A DNA stretch of 64,000 nt from NCBI GenBank assembly GCA_963724635.1, contig CAVRVI010000007.1, positions 73,790-137,789 on the forward strand, written 5' to 3'. Shown here piece after piece: positions 2,317-6,506 of the stretch. Under the pieces are notes generated by a model, which ran no database searches, had not been told where the DNA came from, and was given only the letters and a program-made list of their open reading frames with translations. The position numbers and the translations under genes were made by a program. The stretch comes from an uncultured Chloroflexia bacterium. GTDB lineage: Bacteria; Chloroflexota; Limnocylindria; Limnocylindrales; CSP1-4. Each line of letters opens with the position of its first letter. The stretch's first letter is position 1.

Positions 2317-3000
2317 ATGCCGAGTGCCCGGACTGAACCCGCCCCGCCGCCTGCGCCGACGCCGGGCGACATCGCCTGGACCGCGGCGATCACCGCCGTC
2401 AAGGCCACCGTGATCGCGCTCGCGGTCGATGCGTTCGTGAACGCGGAATCCCCTCGCTATCACGGCAAGGGGATGCGGTTGCGGGCCATCGGCTATGCCG
2501 GGGGCATGCTGCTCGTGCCGCTCGCCTGGCGACTCCACGGTCGTCGCGAGCCGTATCCCCGCGAGCTGGACCTGGCCGTGACGCTGCCGCTCCTCGTGGA
2601 CGCGGGTGGCAACGCCATCGGGATCTATCGCGGCTCGCATGTGGACGATCTCATCCATTTCGCCGACGGAGCCCTCGTCTCCGCGGTGGCCGGGGCGCTC
2701 GCGACGCCGCGCGTCCGAACGTCATGGGAGGCGGCCGGTGTCGCGACGCTGGCCGGGACCGCAGCGGCCGGCCTGTGGGAGATCGGCGAGTGGATCGGCC
2801 TCAAGCTCGGGGCGAAGGGGATGGACCTGACCTACGACGACACGATGACCGATCTCATCGAGACGACCGCCGGCGCGATGCTCGGCGGGGTGATCACCCT
2901 GCTCCGGCATCCAGCACGGCTCCGGCGGGTCCCTGGCCGGCCCGGCGACCCGGTCGTGGAGCTGCATGGCCATGGCGGGCCCGAACCCTCCCGGGAGTGA
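2317..3000 (+). CDS. Integral membrane protein (DUF2238-like)
   Basis: Several TM segments; DDLIHF, LWEIGEW and YDDTMTDL motifs. Confidence 0.7.
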   Translation: MPSARTEPAPPPAPTPGDIAWTAAITAVKATVIALAVDAFVNAESPRYHGKGMRLRAIGYAGGMLLVPLAWRLHGRREPYPRELDLAVTLPLLVDAGGNAIGIYRGSHVDDLIHFADGALVSAVAGALATPRVRTSWEAAGVATLAGTAAAGLWEIGEWIGLKLGAKGMDLTYDDTMTDLIETTAGAMLGGVITLLRHPARLRRVPGRPGDPVVELHGHGGPEPSRE

Positions 3001-3010
3001 GCGCGAGCCC

Positions 3011-3778
3011 ATGGAGAGGCCCTCGATCGACCTGCAGTTCGTCGGCCATGCCACGGTCCGCCTCGACATCGGCGGCGTGCGCGTCCTGACGGACCCCTTC
3101 CTGCGGGACCGTCTCGGGCCGTTGGAGCGGCACGGACCGATGCCCGACCCCGACGACCTGGGGGCGATCGAAGTGGTCGTCATCTCGCACGGCCATCCCG
3201 ACCACTTCGATCGCGCGTCGCTGGCCGTGCTGCGCGATCGCCCCGTGGTCGTCGTCCCGCGCGGGCTTGGCGCTTCGGCCGCGCGGTGGGTCGCGGGCGA
3301 CGTGCTCGAGATGACCGTCGGCGACCGCGTGGACGTCGGTGGGCTCACGATCACGGCGGTGCCAGCTCGCCACTGGATCTCGCCGGGGGCGCCGCGCGCG
3401 GAACCGATCGGATTTCTCCTCGACGCCGGAGCCACGGTCTATTTCGCCGGGGACACCGGGCCGCTGCCGGGCATCGGCGAGCTCGCGGGAACCGTGGATG
3501 TCGCCCTGCTCCCGGTCTGGACCTGGGGCCCGCACCGAGGGCCGGGTCATCTGGGCCCACGATCTGCTGCGGAGGCGGTGGCCGCATGCCAGCCGGCGGT
3601 GGCTGTACCGATCCACTGGGGCACGCTCTACCCACGGCGGCTCCATCACCTGTGGCGCGGACCCCTGGACGAACCGGGCGACCGCTTCGCCGCCCATGCC
3701 CGCCGTCTCGCTCCGGATGTGGACGTCCGGGTCCTCCGCCCCGGCGGGTCCACGACCATCCTCCCGGCGGACGACTGA
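3011..3778 (+). CDS. MBL-fold metallo-hydrolase (UlaG/NAPE-PLD-like)
   Basis: GHAT, LTDP, SHGHPDHFD, YFAGDTG, PIHWGT motifs. Confidence 0.92.
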   Translation: MERPSIDLQFVGHATVRLDIGGVRVLTDPFLRDRLGPLERHGPMPDPDDLGAIEVVVISHGHPDHFDRASLAVLRDRPVVVVPRGLGASAARWVAGDVLEMTVGDRVDVGGLTITAVPARHWISPGAPRAEPIGFLLDAGATVYFAGDTGPLPGIGELAGTVDVALLPVWTWGPHRGPGHLGPRSAAEAVAACQPAVAVPIHWGTLYPRRLHHLWRGPLDEPGDRFAAHARRLAPDVDVRVLRPGGSTTILPADD

Positions 3779-4165
3779 TCGCTGTTCCACCTCACCGGAA
3801 ATGATCGTTCCGCACCGTCTTCGTGAGCGCGCCTGACGAGGAGCCCGTGGTGCGCCAGCTGGTCATCGCCGCGCTGCACGCCGGCCATCTCGATGGCCCG
3901 GAGGGTCCCAGCCACTGGTCCGTGGACGCCGACGAGGCCGTCGAGCCCGACGCCGACGAGCGGTCGATGGCCTCGGGCCGGCTTCCCAAACCTCGGCGGG
4001 TCTCGACGGGTCGATGAGGGTCGGGGCGGGACCGACTTCGCCGAGACTGCAACATCGTTGCAGCGCGGTGGCACGGCCGCGCAGGGGTCGCCGACTGTCC
4101 GTTGCCTCCATCGTGCGTCTTCACGCGCCAGCACGGACGCGATCACGAGATGGAGGACATCACCG

Positions 4166-4381
4166 ATGACGGACGAGCGATCCGCCCTACCGGGCCGCAA
4201 CGACACGCCGGACGGGAAGCCTGGCGCCGAGGGAGACGGTGCCGACTCGAGCGAGGTCGTCGAGGGCCCTGTCGGCTGGTCCAGGCTGAAGGAGCCGGGC
4301 GACGCCGCCGCGGACAGCGCCGATCTCGACGCGCTGCCCGGCTTCGAGCCACCCGACTCCGCCGACGAGCCCCGCGCCTAA
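4166..4381 (+). CDS. Small acidic hypothetical protein
   Basis: GGAGG RBS upstream of ATG 4166; 71 aa, D/E/P-rich. Confidence 0.4.
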   Translation: MTDERSALPGRNDTPDGKPGAEGDGADSSEVVEGPVGWSRLKEPGDAAADSADLDALPGFEPPDSADEPRA

Positions 4382-5097
4382 CCTCCGGCGAGGTCGCCCT
4401 TCAAGGCGTCCAGCCACGTTCGCCAGGACGCCTTGAGGCGCTCGCCGGTCTCGGCGTCCGGGAGTCGCTCGTGCGAGACCGCGACCACGGACTTGTCTGC
4501 ACCCTTGGCCGCGACCGTCACGACCACGCGGGAGGCTGGCGTCGCCCAATCGAATCGGGCGGTCGACTTCGCCCGCGTCGGTCGCGGGGTCATCGGCGCC
4601 CCGGGCAGCCAACGTTCGCGGTGGACGGGATCGGTCACGGCGTCGAGCGCCGCTTCGGGCCCGACGGGCACGGTTCGAGTCACGCTCACGCTGAACCCGT
4701 CCGCCATCTCGTGACGCGCCCGCATCCCGCGCGCCCGCTCGTACGCCACGGTGACGCTCTGCGTCCACCAGCTTCGGACCCCATGCGTCTCGCTCAGCCA
4801 CGCGGCGATCTCGGTGTGGGTGTGGCCGGTCGCCCCCCAGGCGTCCAGAAGGGCGAACCACTCGACGTGGGTGCGGCCCGTGGCGCGGACCAAGGCGTCA
4901 TCGCTGACGACCGTCACGCCGGCCGGCAGGGTCTCCGTCGTCGCCTCGGGCGCCGTCGCCTCGGGCGCCGTCGCCTCCGTCGCGGGATCGGCATCTGCGG
5001 CCTTCGAAAGCAGCTGTCGCCGGGCGGCCGTGTACGACTCGCCGGTCTTGTTCATGCGTGTGCGGACACGGTGCTTGAAGGTCTTCTGGGTGGGCAT
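4378..5097 (-). CDS. DUF4287/SRPBCC-like protein with basic N-terminal module
   Basis: MPTQKTFKHRVRTRMNKTGESYTAARRQL, then ATGRTHVEWFALLD...H.EIAAWL...HGV..WW.Q, then an SRPBCC-like C-terminus. Confidence 0.8.
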   Translation of the reverse strand: MPTQKTFKHRVRTRMNKTGESYTAARRQLLSKAADADPATEATAPEATAPEATTETLPAGVTVVSDDALVRATGRTHVEWFALLDAWGATGHTHTEIAAWLSETHGVRSWWTQSVTVAYERARGMRARHEMADGFSVSVTRTVPVGPEAALDAVTDPVHRERWLPGAPMTPRPTRAKSTARFDWATPASRVVVTVAAKGADKSVVAVSHERLPDAETGERLKASWRTWLDALKGDLAGG

Positions 5098-5130
5098 CGT
5101 CTCGACATCCTTCGCTCTCGACGCGACCAC

Positions 5131-5260
5131 GCGACTCACGCTCACGTGATCCGCCGGAGGAAGGGCGGACGGTCAGTCCCGGGGAAGCAGGTTCCCCTTT
5201 GCCCCATCGCGCCGGCGGCGTGAGCGCCGGATCGGGGTTCGGCGCGGGACGCGCCGTCGC
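5131..5260 (-). ncRNA. Candidate structured 5' leader RNA with pseudoknot
   Basis: Four perfect hairpins, a closing stem and a 7-bp loop-to-3' pseudoknot; -10 CATACT at 5270-5265. Confidence 0.6.
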
Positions 5261-5326
5261 CCGGAGTATGCCAAGCGGGCATCCGGGCGGCAAGCCCCAC
5301 CGCACCGGGAACGGCATACTTCCCAG

Positions 5327-5563
5327 GTGACGACGACCACCGACGCCGTGCCGGCCCTGGCCCACTTTCCCAACGGGAAGGTGAAGTTCTCGGGTTTCCA
5401 CCTGGACGGCGAGATGCACGGCGCCTGGACCTTCTATCGGACCGACGGCTCCACGATGCGCGCGGGGGCGTTCGATCGAGGCCGCCAGGTCGGTCTGTGG
5501 CGGACGTTCGATCGCGCCGGCACCGTCGTGAAGGAGACCGACTTCGGCGAGGCCGACTCGTGA
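5327..5563 (+). CDS. Small MORN-variant repeat protein (YwqK-like)
   Basis: HFPNGKVKFSG...GEMHGAWTFYRTDG...G.FD.GRQVGLW repeats; -10 CATACT 6 nt before GTG. Confidence 0.8.
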   Translation: MTTTTDAVPALAHFPNGKVKFSGFHLDGEMHGAWTFYRTDGSTMRAGAFDRGRQVGLWRTFDRAGTVVKETDFGEADS

Positions 5564-6132
5564 CAACGAGCGACGGCCTCACGCTCGACGTCGCCGCGGC
5601 GGAGGCGCATGTCGACGCCGCGCCCGTCGACCACGGGCGGCTCGAGGCCATCGTCCGCCGACCGGCCGTCGATGCACGCGAGTCGCTCGAGGCGGCGCGG
5701 CTCGATCTCGTGCTCGGGCTCGAAGGCGACGGCTGGGCCGATCGGGGCAGTCGATCGACACCGGATGGCGCCGCGGATCCGGGGGCCCAGGTGACGCTCA
5801 TCAGCGTCCGGGTGCTCGCCGCGATCGAACCCGACCGAACTCGCTGGCCGCTCGCGGGCGACCAGCTGTACGTGGATCTCTGCCTTGACCCGGAGGTCCT
5901 GCCGACGGGCGCCCGGCTCGCCATCGGCGAGGCGATCATCGAAGTCACGGACAAGCCGCACACCGGATGTGCCAAGTTCGGGGCGCGCTTCGGGAGCGAG
6001 GCCCTGCGCTGGATCAATGCGCCCGCCGGTCGGGCACGGCGGCTGCGAGGACTCAATGCGCGGGTCGTGCAGGCCGGCACCATCCGGGTCGGCGATGCCG
6101 TCACGTGCGCGCCGGACACCGCCGACCGATGA
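5560..6132 (+). CDS. MOSC domain protein
   Basis: GLEGD, LAGDQLYVD, PHTGCAKF, LRGLNARVVQAG.IRVGD. Confidence 0.9.
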   Translation: MTTSDGLTLDVAAAEAHVDAAPVDHGRLEAIVRRPAVDARESLEAARLDLVLGLEGDGWADRGSRSTPDGAADPGAQVTLISVRVLAAIEPDRTRWPLAGDQLYVDLCLDPEVLPTGARLAIGEAIIEVTDKPHTGCAKFGARFGSEALRWINAPAGRARRLRGLNARVVQAGTIRVGDAVTCAPDTADR

Positions 6133-6506
6133 CCTTCCAGGACGCGATGGAGGCCGTGGTCCTGGCGTTCGAAGTCGCCGGGATCGCGATCCTGTCCATC
6201 GGGTCGGTCCGGGCGCTCGTCGTGGCCGTCGTCGCCTGGGGAAGCGGGCGACGCGAGGGCGTCTATCAACAGGCCCGCCAACAGGTCGGTCAGGCGATCC
6301 TGCTCGGCCTGGAGGTCCTGATCATCGCCGACATCATCCAGACCGTGATCATCGATCCGACGATCGAGAACGCCGCGACGCTGGGCCTCATCGTGCTCGT
6401 TCGGACGTTCCTGAGCTTCTCGCTCGAGATCGAGCTGGAGGGGGTCGTCCCGTGGAAGCGGCGCGATGCCCAGCGCCTGGACGCCGAGGAGCGTCCCCCG
6501 GCGTGA
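6129..6506 (+). CDS. DUF1622 membrane protein
   Basis: GQAILLGLEVLIIADII.TV...LGLIVLVRTFLSFSLE.E. Confidence 0.9.
   Translation: MTFQDAMEAVVLAFEVAGIAILSIGSVRALVVAVVAWGSGRREGVYQQARQQVGQAILLGLEVLIIADIIQTVIIDPTIENAATLGLIVLVRTFLSFSLEIELEGVVPWKRRDAQRLDAEERPPA

What the first reader, a model, noticed from the sequence alone, without database searches (positions are those of the whole stretch)
4378..5270. Pseudoknotted ~130-nt leader RNA coupled to a protein with a basic N-terminal module: candidate new RNA-protein system
Seen (plus-strand coordinates, minus-strand transcript): -10 CATACT 5270-5265; closing stem 5257-5260/5131-5134; 7-bp hairpin 5240-5246/5250-5256; CCCC/GGGG stem enclosing a 6-bp hairpin 5212-5217/5225-5230 whose 7-nt loop (5218-5224) is exactly complementary to 5135-5141, forming a pseudoknot; 6-bp hairpins 5181-5186/5192-5197 and 5150-5155/5164-5169; A-rich GGCAAAGG junction. 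The 3' pairing elements are duplicated (CTCACG at 5135 and 5141; GCGAC at 5123 and 5131), which allows two registers just upstream of the RBS. The gene begins with a K/R-rich helix (TQKTFKHRVRTRMNKTGESYTAARRQL), separated by an ATAPE linker from DUF4287/SRPBCC domains. I do not recognise the RNA as a known riboswitch. Inference: an uncharacterised riboswitch, ribozyme or autoregulatory RNA bound by the basic N-terminus.
Basis: partly seen in the sequence, partly recalled or inferred. Interest (0 to 1): 0.82.

Follow-up and report, generated by a model that had tools for sequence, protein, structure and literature searches.

The report
Knotted leader RNA with partner peptide
A tightly folded stretch of RNA in front of this gene always occurs together with a short, positively charged beginning of the protein it precedes, in many bacterial phyla, which points to an undescribed RNA-protein control unit.

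Summary
The ~160-nt 5' leader (window 5258-5098, minus strand) is a conserved structured RNA. It has hairpin P1, helix P2 enclosing hairpin P3, hairpin P4 and hairpin P6. I found a second pseudoknot, P1 loop with the 5 nt after P4.

On 90 leaders, 98.3% of cells pair, against 30-56% when partners are slid, and 16 of 22 pairs show compensatory changes. Rfam 15 has no match.

The RNA is tied to the ~30-aa basic N-terminal module (MTTxKxFKxRVRxRMxKTGExYxxARR), not to DUF4287/SRPBCC. The same leader precedes BtrH_N/DUF4872 and WD40 proteins carrying that module. Whole-genome searches with RNA model and module profile return the same places: 17 of 17 in seven genomes, and 26 of 26 testable in a 151-genome sample. 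Module and leader occur in Chloroflexota, Actinomycetota, Acidobacteriota, Gemmatimonadota, Planctomycetota and others.

Not supported are the closing stem (5257-5260/5131-5134) and the two-register idea. Function is inferred. Most likely the module binds its own leader for translational feedback (~0.45). The main rivals are a small-molecule riboswitch and a stable RNP.

The parts
5288..5293 (-). Possible -35 hexamer TTGCCG, 17 nt before the -10
   Evidence: Read. TTG is also seen in close relatives. Not called by the consensus scan. Inferred.
5265..5270 (-). Possible -10 hexamer CATACT; the transcript would start about 5258
   Evidence: Relatives have TANNNT (CATACT, TATCAT, TAGCAT, TACCAT, TATCCT) 6-10 nt before P1. 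Not called by the scan. No transcript 5' end was measured.
5241..5255 (-). P1 hairpin: 5 conserved pairs 5255-5251 with 5245-5241; loop L1 5250-5246 (GUCCC)
   Evidence: 97.3% paired in 90 leaders. The three inner pairs are unchanged in 90, 90 and 89 of 90; the outer pairs covary. Total length is 14-17 nt.
5176..5180 (-). GGGAC directly after P4; pairs with L1 (5250-5246) to form pseudoknot 1
   Evidence: The complement to the own P1 loop starts 15-17 nt after the first G of P4 in 61 of 72 distinct leaders. Variants: ACCUC/GAGGU, UGUUUC/GAAACA, CCGCUCG/CGAGCGG, CAUCCG/CGGAUG. Own score 4.81, against 4.11 for swapped loops and 3.69 for shuffled loops.
5202..5237 (-). P2 (CCCC 5237-5234 with GGGG 5205-5202), enclosing P3
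   Evidence: 99.7% paired; 4 of 4 pairs have two-sided changes.
5212..5230 (-). P3 hairpin (5230-5225 with 5217-5212) with 7-nt loop L3 5224-5218 (CUCACGC)
   Evidence: 98.7% paired; 6 of 6 pairs have two-sided changes.
5198..5201 (-). CAAA junction between P2 and P4 (part of GGCAAAGGGG)
   Evidence: CAAAGG in 68 of 90 leaders, TAAAGG in 16, TAGAGG in 4, CAGAGG in 1, GAAAGG in 1.
5181..5197 (-). P4 hairpin (GGGGAA 5197-5192 with UUCCCC 5186-5181)
   Evidence: GGGG...CCYC is seen in all lineages. In the window's register 44-74% of cells pair, because loop length differs between lineages.
5148..5175 (-). Variable P5 region.
   Evidence: Hairpin 54-72% paired. The ribosome-binding site pairs with this region in the minimum-energy fold of 71 of 111 leaders. 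Own versus swapped duplex energy is only -12.1 against -10.9 kcal/mol. Inconclusive.
5129..5147 (-). P6 hairpin (ACGUGA 5147-5142 with UCGCGU 5134-5129). Its 7-nt loop L6 5141-5135 (GCGUGAG) pairs with L3: a loop-loop 'kissing' helix (pseudoknot 2)
   Evidence: L3:L6 is 97.8% paired, with 4 of 7 pairs changed on both sides. At least 8 distinct complementary loop pairs are seen. The P6 stem is 88-91% paired, with 5 of 5 pairs changed on both sides.
5108..5113 (-). Ribosome-binding site GAAGGA, 10 nt before the start codon
   Evidence: Read. Purine-rich sites sit at the same place in relatives.
5002..5097 (-). Start codon ATG 5097-5095 and the basic N-terminal module (aa 1-32, MPTQKTFKHRVRTRMNKTGESYTAARRQLLSK)
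   Evidence: Invariant M1 K8 R12 R14 M15 T18 G19 E20 Y22 A25 R26 in 69 sequences. No Pfam, NCBIfam or PDB-sequence relative.
4378..5001 (-). Rest of the gene: Pro/Ala/Glu-rich linker with a 15-nt tandem repeat, a DUF4287-like part (aa 71-107, 4777-4887), an SRPBCC-like part (aa 136-212, 4462-4692) and the stop codon
   Evidence: both Pfam hits are below cut-off. Homologues are annotated AHSA1/START or DUF4287.

Best explanation
The gene 4378-5097 (-) is preceded by a ~160-nt 5' untranslated leader. It folds into a compact, doubly pseudoknotted RNA.

**Fold**
- P1, whose 5-nt loop pairs with the 5 nt after P4.
- P2 enclosing P3.
- P4.
- A variable P5 region.
- P6, whose 7-nt loop kisses the 7-nt loop of P3.
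- The ribosome-binding site follows. The 3' end of the P6 loop lies about 31-37 nt before the start codon (37 nt in the window).

**The unit**
This RNA and the first ~30 residues of the protein form one evolutionary and functional unit. The unit is attached to at least three unrelated protein bodies.

**Most likely mechanism (inferred)**
The arginine-rich module of the finished or nascent protein binds the folded leader of its own mRNA. The invariant G-C core of P1 and the CAAAGG junction are the best candidate contacts. Binding would change access of the ribosome to the nearby start region, giving feedback on translation.

**Shown:** the structure, its conservation, the one-to-one linkage and the absence of a terminator.
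**Inferred:** binding, the direction of control, the transcript start.

**My odds**
- Real structured RNA: 0.97.
- RNA and module functionally coupled: 0.85.
- Direct binding with translational feedback: 0.45.
For: **Structure**
- MAFFT alignment of 15 relatives: 99.4% of cells paired against 31-50% when slid.
- 90 leaders: 98.3% against 30-56%; 16 of 22 pairs and 189 cells with two-sided changes; 0 of 500 shuffles reach this.
- P6 is 88-91% paired with 5 of 5 covarying pairs.
- At least 8 different complementary L3/L6 loop pairs.
- L1 pairs with the segment after P4, with compensatory variants.
- G-U pairs occur on the sense strand (GU:8, UG:8, UG:13), and P1 length varies from 14 to 17 nt. 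Both fit RNA, not a DNA palindrome.

**Linkage**
- 11 of 11 loci found only through the N-terminal ~50 aa carry the RNA. L036, which matches only the DUF4287 part, has none.
- The module is found after 70 of 71 strong RNA hits. The 71st, L030, is frameshifted.
- 78 of 80 module loci from many phyla carry the RNA.
- Module and RNA searches return identical places in 7 whole genomes, 17 of 17.
- In a 151-genome class sample, 26 of 26 testable places match. Without the unpublished G272 and G291 this is 24 of 24.

**Other**
- Three protein bodies: DUF4287+AHSA1, BtrH_N+DUF4872, WD40.
- No conserved neighbour gene across phyla.
- Leader DNA is 83-88% identical where the proteins are 58-65% identical.
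- The loop-to-start distance is mostly 31-37 nt.
- No terminator in the leader.
- Metatranscriptome contigs join leader and module coding region: X1 record 1 and X2 record 10.
Against:
- A 160-nt, doubly pseudoknotted fold is larger than most known protein-binding leaders and looks like a riboswitch aptamer or ribozyme core.
- The module has no detectable relative among known RNA-binding domains.
- Its secondary structure is unknown. The V-R-A-R-M alternation gives a higher beta moment than helical moment (0.52 against 0.30), so my first idea of a helical hairpin is not supported.
- Sequestration of the ribosome-binding site is not established.
- One species (L118) keeps the module but has lost P1-P5.
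- The promoter is not called by the scan, and no 5' end was measured.
- RNA-library contigs may contain DNA.
- Alignments A2, A4 and A6 are fitted to model R1, which leans towards P1-P3. Related sequences inflate the shuffle tests.
Confidence: 0.45

Rival explanations
1. The leader is a riboswitch for a small molecule or ion. The N-terminal module is an independent domain that is merely inherited with it.
For: The fold is compact, has two pseudoknots and has invariant junction nucleotides, as in many aptamers. The region next to the ribosome-binding site differs between lineages, like an expression platform. An alternative pairing of the P6 3' arm with the ribosome-binding site is visible in the Micromonospora leaders (read).
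Against: - All strong hits precede the module. No leader was found before a transporter, an enzyme or any gene without it: 17 of 17 and 26 of 26 places, and 70 of 71 hits.
- No conserved neighbour genes.
- No Rfam class matches.
Confidence: 0.2
2. The leader, perhaps cut from the mRNA, is a stable RNA partner of the module. The module anchors different protein bodies (SRPBCC, BtrH-like, WD40) on this RNA or on a look-alike cellular RNA. Regulation is secondary or absent.
For: The same module sits on three unrelated bodies. Genomes hold 2-3 cassettes. The fold is large and compact. The module core weakly resembles the ribosomal protein bL34 core: hhalign 50% identity over 18 columns, P 0.0034.
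Against: - The hhalign probability is only 9.5%, and Pfam L34 does not hit the module.
- Model R1 finds nothing in an rRNA operon: best 8.6 bits.
- RNA-library contigs join leader and coding region.
- There is no evidence of processing.
Confidence: 0.15
3. The module is a small DNA-binding domain (ribbon-helix-like). It represses its own promoter at the P1 palindrome near +1. The rest of the leader is an mRNA-stability or unrelated RNA element.
For: - P1 is a GGCG...CGCC palindrome that starts at about +1 to +4. Its three inner pairs do not vary.
- The module has a beta-like V-R-A-R-M stretch followed by a G-x-S turn and a helix. This recalls ribbon-helix-helix proteins (recalled).
Against: - Half-site spacing varies over 14-17 nt.
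- Wobble pairs fit only the RNA strand.
- No ribbon-helix-helix family is hit in Pfam, even at E up to 10.
- Only one helix follows the strand.
- The model does not explain the covarying P2, P3, P6 and the two pseudoknots.
Confidence: 0.08
4. The leader is a self-cleaving ribozyme of a new class.
For: The architecture is doubly pseudoknotted and has invariant nucleotides.
Against: - No match to any ribozyme family in Rfam 15.
- RNA-library contigs run through the leader into the coding region.
- A ribozyme does not explain the module linkage.
Confidence: 0.04

Closest known systems
Autogenous translational operators of ribosomal proteins and ThrRS (e.g. the L20 and S15 leaders; recalled, not tested here)
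   Same: A structured, often pseudoknotted 5' leader of the protein's own mRNA lies next to the ribosome-binding site. A basic part of the protein is the presumed binder. The gene stands alone with its leader.
   Different: Here the presumed binder is a portable ~30-aa N-terminal module shared by three unrelated protein bodies. No mimicry of rRNA was found. The RNA is larger and has two pseudoknots. Binding is not shown.
Phage lambda N protein and the boxB hairpin of nutL in its own leader (recalled)
   Same: An arginine-rich peptide at the extreme N-terminus and an RNA element in the leader of the same gene.
   Different: No boxB-like free hairpin loop: both small loops (L1, L3) are engaged in pairing. 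The module is not related to N by any search. The element is cellular, with only 3 loci in viral contigs.
Modular RNA-binding regulators (BglG/SacY CAT domain with RAT RNA; ANTAR) (recalled)
   Same: One small RNA-binding domain is joined to different other domains and acts on a leader RNA.
   Different: Those act by antitermination on target operons. Here there is no terminator and no downstream operon. There is also no sequence relation.
Riboswitches with loop-loop or pseudoknot tertiary contacts (e.g. cobalamin, lysine) (recalled)
   Same: A compact multi-helix 5' leader with covarying long-range loop pairing, followed by a variable region before the start codon.
   Different: No Rfam class matches. 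The gene association is with a peptide module, not with a metabolic pathway.
ColE1 Rop protein binding the RNA I/RNA II kissing complex (recalled)
   Same: A 7-bp loop-loop helix between two 7-nt hairpin loops is a possible target of a small basic protein part.
   Different: The kissing is intramolecular. The module is half the size of Rop, and its fold is unknown.

Membership tests
Any Rfam 15 family (riboswitches, ribozymes, leaders) | Covariance-model match at or near the gathering score | tested here: not met
   Window 4000-6500: 3 chance hits at E 2-4, none in the leader. Ten loci from other phyla: 0 hits at E up to 1.
Protein-binding autoregulatory leader (ribosomal-protein type) | The gene product binds its own leader | not testable with these tools
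Protein-binding autoregulatory leader (ribosomal-protein type) | The leader mimics the protein's primary RNA target | tested here: not met
   Crude test only. R1 with filters off on one rRNA operon (L217): best 8.6 bits, without structure.
Metabolite riboswitch | The same RNA precedes functionally related genes of a pathway or transport, independent of any shared protein domain | tested here: not met
   Every strong hit precedes the module: 70 of 71; 17 of 17; 26 of 26 testable.
Metabolite riboswitch | Ligand-dependent structural change | not testable with these tools
   Needs in-line probing or SHAPE.
Ribbon-helix-helix DNA-binding domains | Match to an RHH family profile; a strand followed by two helices | tested here: not met
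   No Pfam hit at E up to 10 for five modules. Only one helix-like stretch comes before the Pro/Ala linker.
Ribosomal protein bL34 (PF00468) | Match to the L34 profile | tested here: inconclusive
   hmmscan gives no hit. PF00468 finds only the true L34, one per genome, in 31 of 31 genomes. hhalign aligns module 10-27 with L34 17-35 at 50% identity, P 0.0034, probability 9.5%.
DUF4287 (PF14117) / SRPBCC-AHSA1 for the body of the window protein | Score at or above Pfam's gathering cut-off | tested here: inconclusive
   Window protein: 24.8 against 27 bits and 17 against 27.4 bits. Relative L059: DUF4287 28.0 against 27, AHSA1 20.5 against 22.1. Many homologues carry precomputed PF14117 or PF08327.
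Lambda N-type arginine-rich motif with boxB | A free GNRA-like hairpin loop recognised by the peptide | tested here: not met
   The small loops L1 and L3 are fully complementary to other leader segments.

The most novel reading that the evidence does not exclude
A portable RNA-peptide cassette. It consists of a doubly pseudoknotted leader RNA and a ~30-aa arginine-rich N-terminal peptide, possibly a distant derivative of the bL34 RNA-binding core, that recognise each other. Evolution has attached the pair to unrelated proteins in at least eight phyla. This would be a new class of protein-sensing riboregulator or mRNA-tethering device, rather than one more family-specific leader.
Probability: 0.3. 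Interest if true: 0.92.

Novelty: new variant of a known kind. Interest (0 to 1): 0.85.

Why it matters
If the module binds its leader, this would be the first portable RNA-peptide regulatory pair that I could find. The same leader and the same 30-residue tag sit on at least three unrelated protein families.

It is widespread. The peptide pattern gave 546 confirmed loci among species-representative genomes. The module profile gave 3993 protein clusters in metagenomes.

It would matter in four ways:
- It adds a large, well-covarying RNA fold to the list of unexplained bacterial RNAs.
- It gives a first handle on the unknown DUF4287/SRPBCC and BtrH_N/DUF4872 proteins.
- It offers a compact RNA-peptide pair for synthetic biology.
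- It occurs in cultured Micromonospora, Streptomyces, Nocardiopsis and Actinokineospora, so it can be tested at the bench.

Tried and rejected
**Ideas tested and dropped**
Rejected.
- Two-register idea: the duplications are specific to the window. Rejected.
- P5a (GGAC/GTCC) and P5b in the window's register: 44-72% paired. Left open, because the region aligns badly.
- Alternative long-range helix between the P3 3' arm and the downstream CCGGCG, proposed by RNAalifold. It is compatible with wobble pairs, but the downstream element does not change when the P3 arms change (read). Not adopted.
- Sequestration of the ribosome-binding site. About 67% of positions -16 to -5 pair in minimum-energy folds, with or without the loops held free. 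The partner lies in the P5 region in 71 of 111 leaders. Own versus swapped energy differs by only 1.3 kcal/mol. Not established.
- rRNA mimicry: no match in one rRNA operon.
- bL34 homology: weak.
- Helical-hairpin (Rop-like) reading of the module: not supported by the hydrophobic moments.
- Pairing of the leader with the T-G-E codons (CCGGCG): no covariation when the P3 arms change (read). Rejected.
- Upstream in-frame GTG 5145 as the start: homologues start at M-P/T-T.
- Conserved neighbour gene: none across phyla.
- Phage link: 3 loci in very long 'viral' contigs. Not followed.

**Limits of my own scripts and searches**
- My loop parser failed or chose another hairpin in 34 of 145 leaders. 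These rows were dropped from the distance, P6 and ribosome-binding-site counts. They are parser failures, not shown absences.
- Weak R1 hits without a module (L073, L074, L075, L014, L016, L095, G107:C211) were treated as chance. They score 17-27 bits, and most cover only part of the model.
- G453 gave no RNA hit in the whole-genome search, although its locus L106 is hit at 34.8 bits. The filters lose weak variants.
- Parts of the stretch without cover in the metatranscriptome contigs are not evidence.

**Literature**
- No relevant paper for 'DUF4287', 'DUF4872/BtrH', 'SRPBCC'+'riboswitch', 'structured noncoding RNAs'+'Micromonospora'+'motif', or the motif strings KTGESY, KTGERY, RMAKTGE, RMTKTGE.
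- Preprint 10.64898/2026.10.21.760802 (passages read) mentions an uncharacterised motif (its cluster 566,452) directly upstream of unannotated proteins with a YndB-like N-terminal domain. It may or may not be this RNA. Here the YndB-like part is C-terminal. Figures and supplements are not held, so I could not tell.

Full report
**What is in the window.**
- On the minus strand, a 239-aa gene runs from ATG 5097 to the stop at 4378.
- It is transcribed divergently from a small MORN-like gene on the plus strand (5327-5563), which leaves 229 nt between the two.
- The protein starts with MPTQKTFKHRVRTRMNKTGESYTAARRQLL. A Pro/Ala/Glu-rich linker follows, then weak DUF4287 and SRPBCC matches, both below Pfam's cut-offs.
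- All 15 full-length relatives in the genus begin at the same M-P/T-T. ATG 5097 is therefore the start, not the upstream in-frame GTG 5145.

**Check of the observation.**
- Alone, the 176-nt stretch folds only modestly better than shuffles: -89.9 against -79.3 +/- 4.5 kcal/mol, z -2.38, with 2 of 200 shuffles as good. In a genome this GC-rich, that proves little.
- The decisive evidence is comparative. The leader DNA is 83-88% identical in four genomes of the genus whose proteins are only 58-65% identical.
- A MAFFT alignment of 15 leaders shows P1, P2, P3 and the P3-loop pseudoknot paired in 99.4% of cells, against 31-50% when partners are slid. Eight of 22 pairs change on both sides, and 0 of 500 shuffles reach this.

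**A family-wide structure.**
- From that alignment I built covariance model R1, with P1-P3 only. I then aligned 90 leaders (E <= 1e-5) out of 98 loci from many phyla.
- P1, P2, P3 and the loop pairing are paired in 98.3% of 1894 cells, against 30-56% when slid. Sixteen of 22 pairs and 189 cells change on both sides, and 0 of 500 shuffles reach any of the five measures.
- The alignment is fitted to R1's P1-P3, which favours those helices. The pseudoknot and P6 were not in the model.
- The 3' partner of the P3 loop is itself the 7-nt loop of a hairpin, P6 (window 5147-5142/5134-5129). P6 is 88-91% paired, with 5 of 5 pairs changed on both sides. The 'pseudoknot' is therefore a 7-bp loop-loop kiss.
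- At least eight different complementary loop pairs occur:
  - CUCACGC/GCGUGAG
  - CCCACGC/GCGUGGG
  - CCUGCGC/GCGCAGG
  - CCCCAGC/GCUGGGG
  - CCCCGGC/GCCGGGG
  - CUCGCGC/GCGCGAG
  - CCGCACC/GGUGCGG
  - CCCGCGC/GUGCGGG
- A second tertiary pairing emerged. The P1 loop (GUCCC, 5250-5246) is complementary to the 5 nt right after P4 (GGGAC, 5180-5176).
  - Compensatory variants include ACCUC/GAGGU, UGUUUC/GAAACA and CCGCUCG/CGAGCGG.
  - The pairing sits at a fixed place in 61 of 72 distinct leaders.
  - Own score is 4.81, against 4.11 for swapped loops and 3.69 for shuffled loops.
- P4 (GGGG...CCYC) is present everywhere, but loop length varies, so the fixed-column count is poor at 44-74%.
- The P5 region is variable.
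- CAAAGG between P2 and P4 is almost invariant, and P1 keeps GCG/CGC in 89-90 of 90 leaders.
- The 3' end of the P6 loop lies mostly 31-37 nt before the start codon. This rests on the 111 of 145 leaders that my parser handled.

**The RNA goes with the N-terminal module, not with the protein body.**
- A protein search of relatives returned 16 full-length homologues. It also returned 11 loci that match only the first ~50 residues.
- All 11 have the leader directly upstream. L036, which matches only the DUF4287 part, has none.
- The proteins behind the leaders fall into three architectures:
  - DUF4287+AHSA1/SRPBCC, about 210-260 aa.
  - BtrH_N+DUF4872, about 360-460 aa.
  - WD40 propellers, about 325 aa.
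- The window's own genome holds a second cassette of the BtrH type on another contig.
- The module start was found behind 70 of 71 strong hits. The exception, L030, is frameshifted.
- In the reverse direction, a peptide-pattern scan of species genomes gave 546 confirmed loci. Of the best 80, 78 carry the leader. L149 has no upstream DNA. L118 (a Micromonospora) has lost P1-P5 and keeps only P6 and the ribosome-binding site.
- Whole-genome searches with both probes return the same places:

| Genome | Places found by both probes |
|---|---|
| Actinokineospora | 3 of 3 |
| Micromonospora | 1 of 1 |
| G000 | 2 of 2 |
| G026 | 3 of 3 |
| G311 | 2 of 2 |
| G107 | 3 of 3 (plus one weak partial RNA hit without a module) |
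| G091 | 3 of 3 |

- In an even sample of 151 genomes of the class, the module occurs at 27 places in 21 genomes.
  - The leader is found at 26 of 26 testable places. Five of these needed the filters off.
  - One place is cut by a contig end.
  - Two places lie in the unpublished genomes G272 and G291. Without them the count is 24 of 24.
- No neighbouring gene is conserved across phyla.

**Distribution.**
- R1 hits 34 of 151 genomes of the family, in 22 of 49 genera.
- It hits 18 of 151 genomes of the class. This count includes one false positive and the two unpublished genomes.
- Outside the class, it hits one real case among the phylum sample.
- Record titles of the module loci name the following:
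  - Chloroflexota/Limnocylindria.
  - Many Actinomycetota: Micromonospora, Streptomyces, Nocardiopsis, Streptomonospora, Planobispora, Actinokineospora, Solirubrobacterales.
  - Acidobacteriota, Gemmatimonadota, Planctomycetota, Trueperaceae, Nannocystales and Eisenbacteria.
- The module profile finds 3993 cluster representatives at E <= 1e-3, almost always at residue 1.
- Soil and rhizosphere metatranscriptome contigs contain many versions of the conserved cores. Two contigs run from the leader into the module's coding region. Such libraries can contain DNA.

**Not a known family.**
- Rfam 15 gives nothing.
- The module has no Pfam, NCBIfam or PDB-sequence relative.
- Six literature searches found no description.
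- One 2026 preprint mentions, without analysis, a motif upstream of proteins with a YndB-like domain that might overlap.

**How it most likely works.**
- The exclusive two-way linkage is hard to explain unless RNA and module act on each other.
  - It spans three protein bodies and many phyla.
  - The gene has no operon partners.
- A metabolite riboswitch would be expected before other genes too.
- A DNA operator is contradicted in three ways:
  - wobble pairs on the sense strand;
  - P1 spacing of 14-17 nt;
  - the covarying tertiary pairs.
- There is no terminator. The fold ends at a fixed distance from the start codon, inside or at the edge of the stretch a ribosome covers (established knowledge, recalled).
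- I therefore commit to translational feedback by binding of the arginine-rich module to its own leader. The invariant P1 core and the CAAAGG junction are the candidate contacts.
- This step is inference. Whether binding represses or activates, and whether the CCUUC element of the P5 region masks the ribosome-binding site, remains open.
- The module's fold is also open. The alternating V-R-A-R-M suggests a strand with arginines on one face, followed by the invariant T-G-E turn and an amphipathic helix.
- Its core resembles the GFRARM...AARR core of ribosomal protein bL34 (50% identity over 18 columns, P 0.0034), but at a probability of only 9.5%. No rRNA mimicry was seen.

**Limits.**
- Related sequences inflate shuffle statistics.
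- P4-P6 were judged partly by my own scripts.
- The promoter and the transcript start are inferred.

Noticed in passing
G000 contig C14:81765-82052 (loci L015/L096), outside the window: The window's own genome has a second cassette: the same leader type followed by the module on a 442-aa BtrH_N+DUF4872 protein.
   Followed up: yes
L118:1400-1500 (Micromonospora marina record): The module gene is intact, but the leader's 5' domain (P1-P5) is replaced by the end of an upstream gene. Only hairpin P6 and the ribosome-binding site remain. This is a natural deletion that could show what the 5' domain is needed for.
   Followed up: partly
L030 (G007), L035/L021 (G012), L031, L039, L042, L067: Several cassette genes read as frameshifted just after or inside the module, while the leader is intact. 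The cause could be assembly errors or decaying copies.
   Followed up: no
L025:2143-2330 (G034): This leader carries an extra ~25-nt GC-rich hairpin inserted between the 5' strand of P2 and P3. The insertion is tolerated at that junction.
   Followed up: no
window 4935-4985 (-): The linker after the module contains a 15-nt direct repeat, giving EATAPEATAPEA. Linkers in relatives are all Pro/Ala/Glu/Thr-rich but unrelated in sequence and length.
   Followed up: no
window 5327-6132 (+) and 2966-3778 (+): Neighbours of the cassette: a 78-aa MORN-repeat-like ORF (weak Pfam hit), an overlapping 211-aa MOSC-domain ORF, and a metallo-beta-lactamase-fold protein that converges on the cassette gene. 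None is conserved next to the cassette in other phyla.
   Followed up: partly
alignments A5 and A7: The module core (RVRxRMxKTGExYxAARR) aligns with the GFRARMKTxGGRRVLAARR core of ribosomal protein bL34 from the same family of genomes: 50% identity over 18 columns, hhalign P 0.0034 but probability 9.5%.
   Followed up: partly
L125:1300-1720 with runs X1-X3: Soil and rhizosphere metatranscriptome assemblies hold many different versions of the leader core and of the module coding region, which suggests the cassette is common in soil communities.
   Followed up: partly
L214-L216 (viral contigs): Three module matches lie on very long (370-500 kb) contigs filed as viral. I did not examine whether these are true phage genomes or bacterial DNA.
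   Followed up: no
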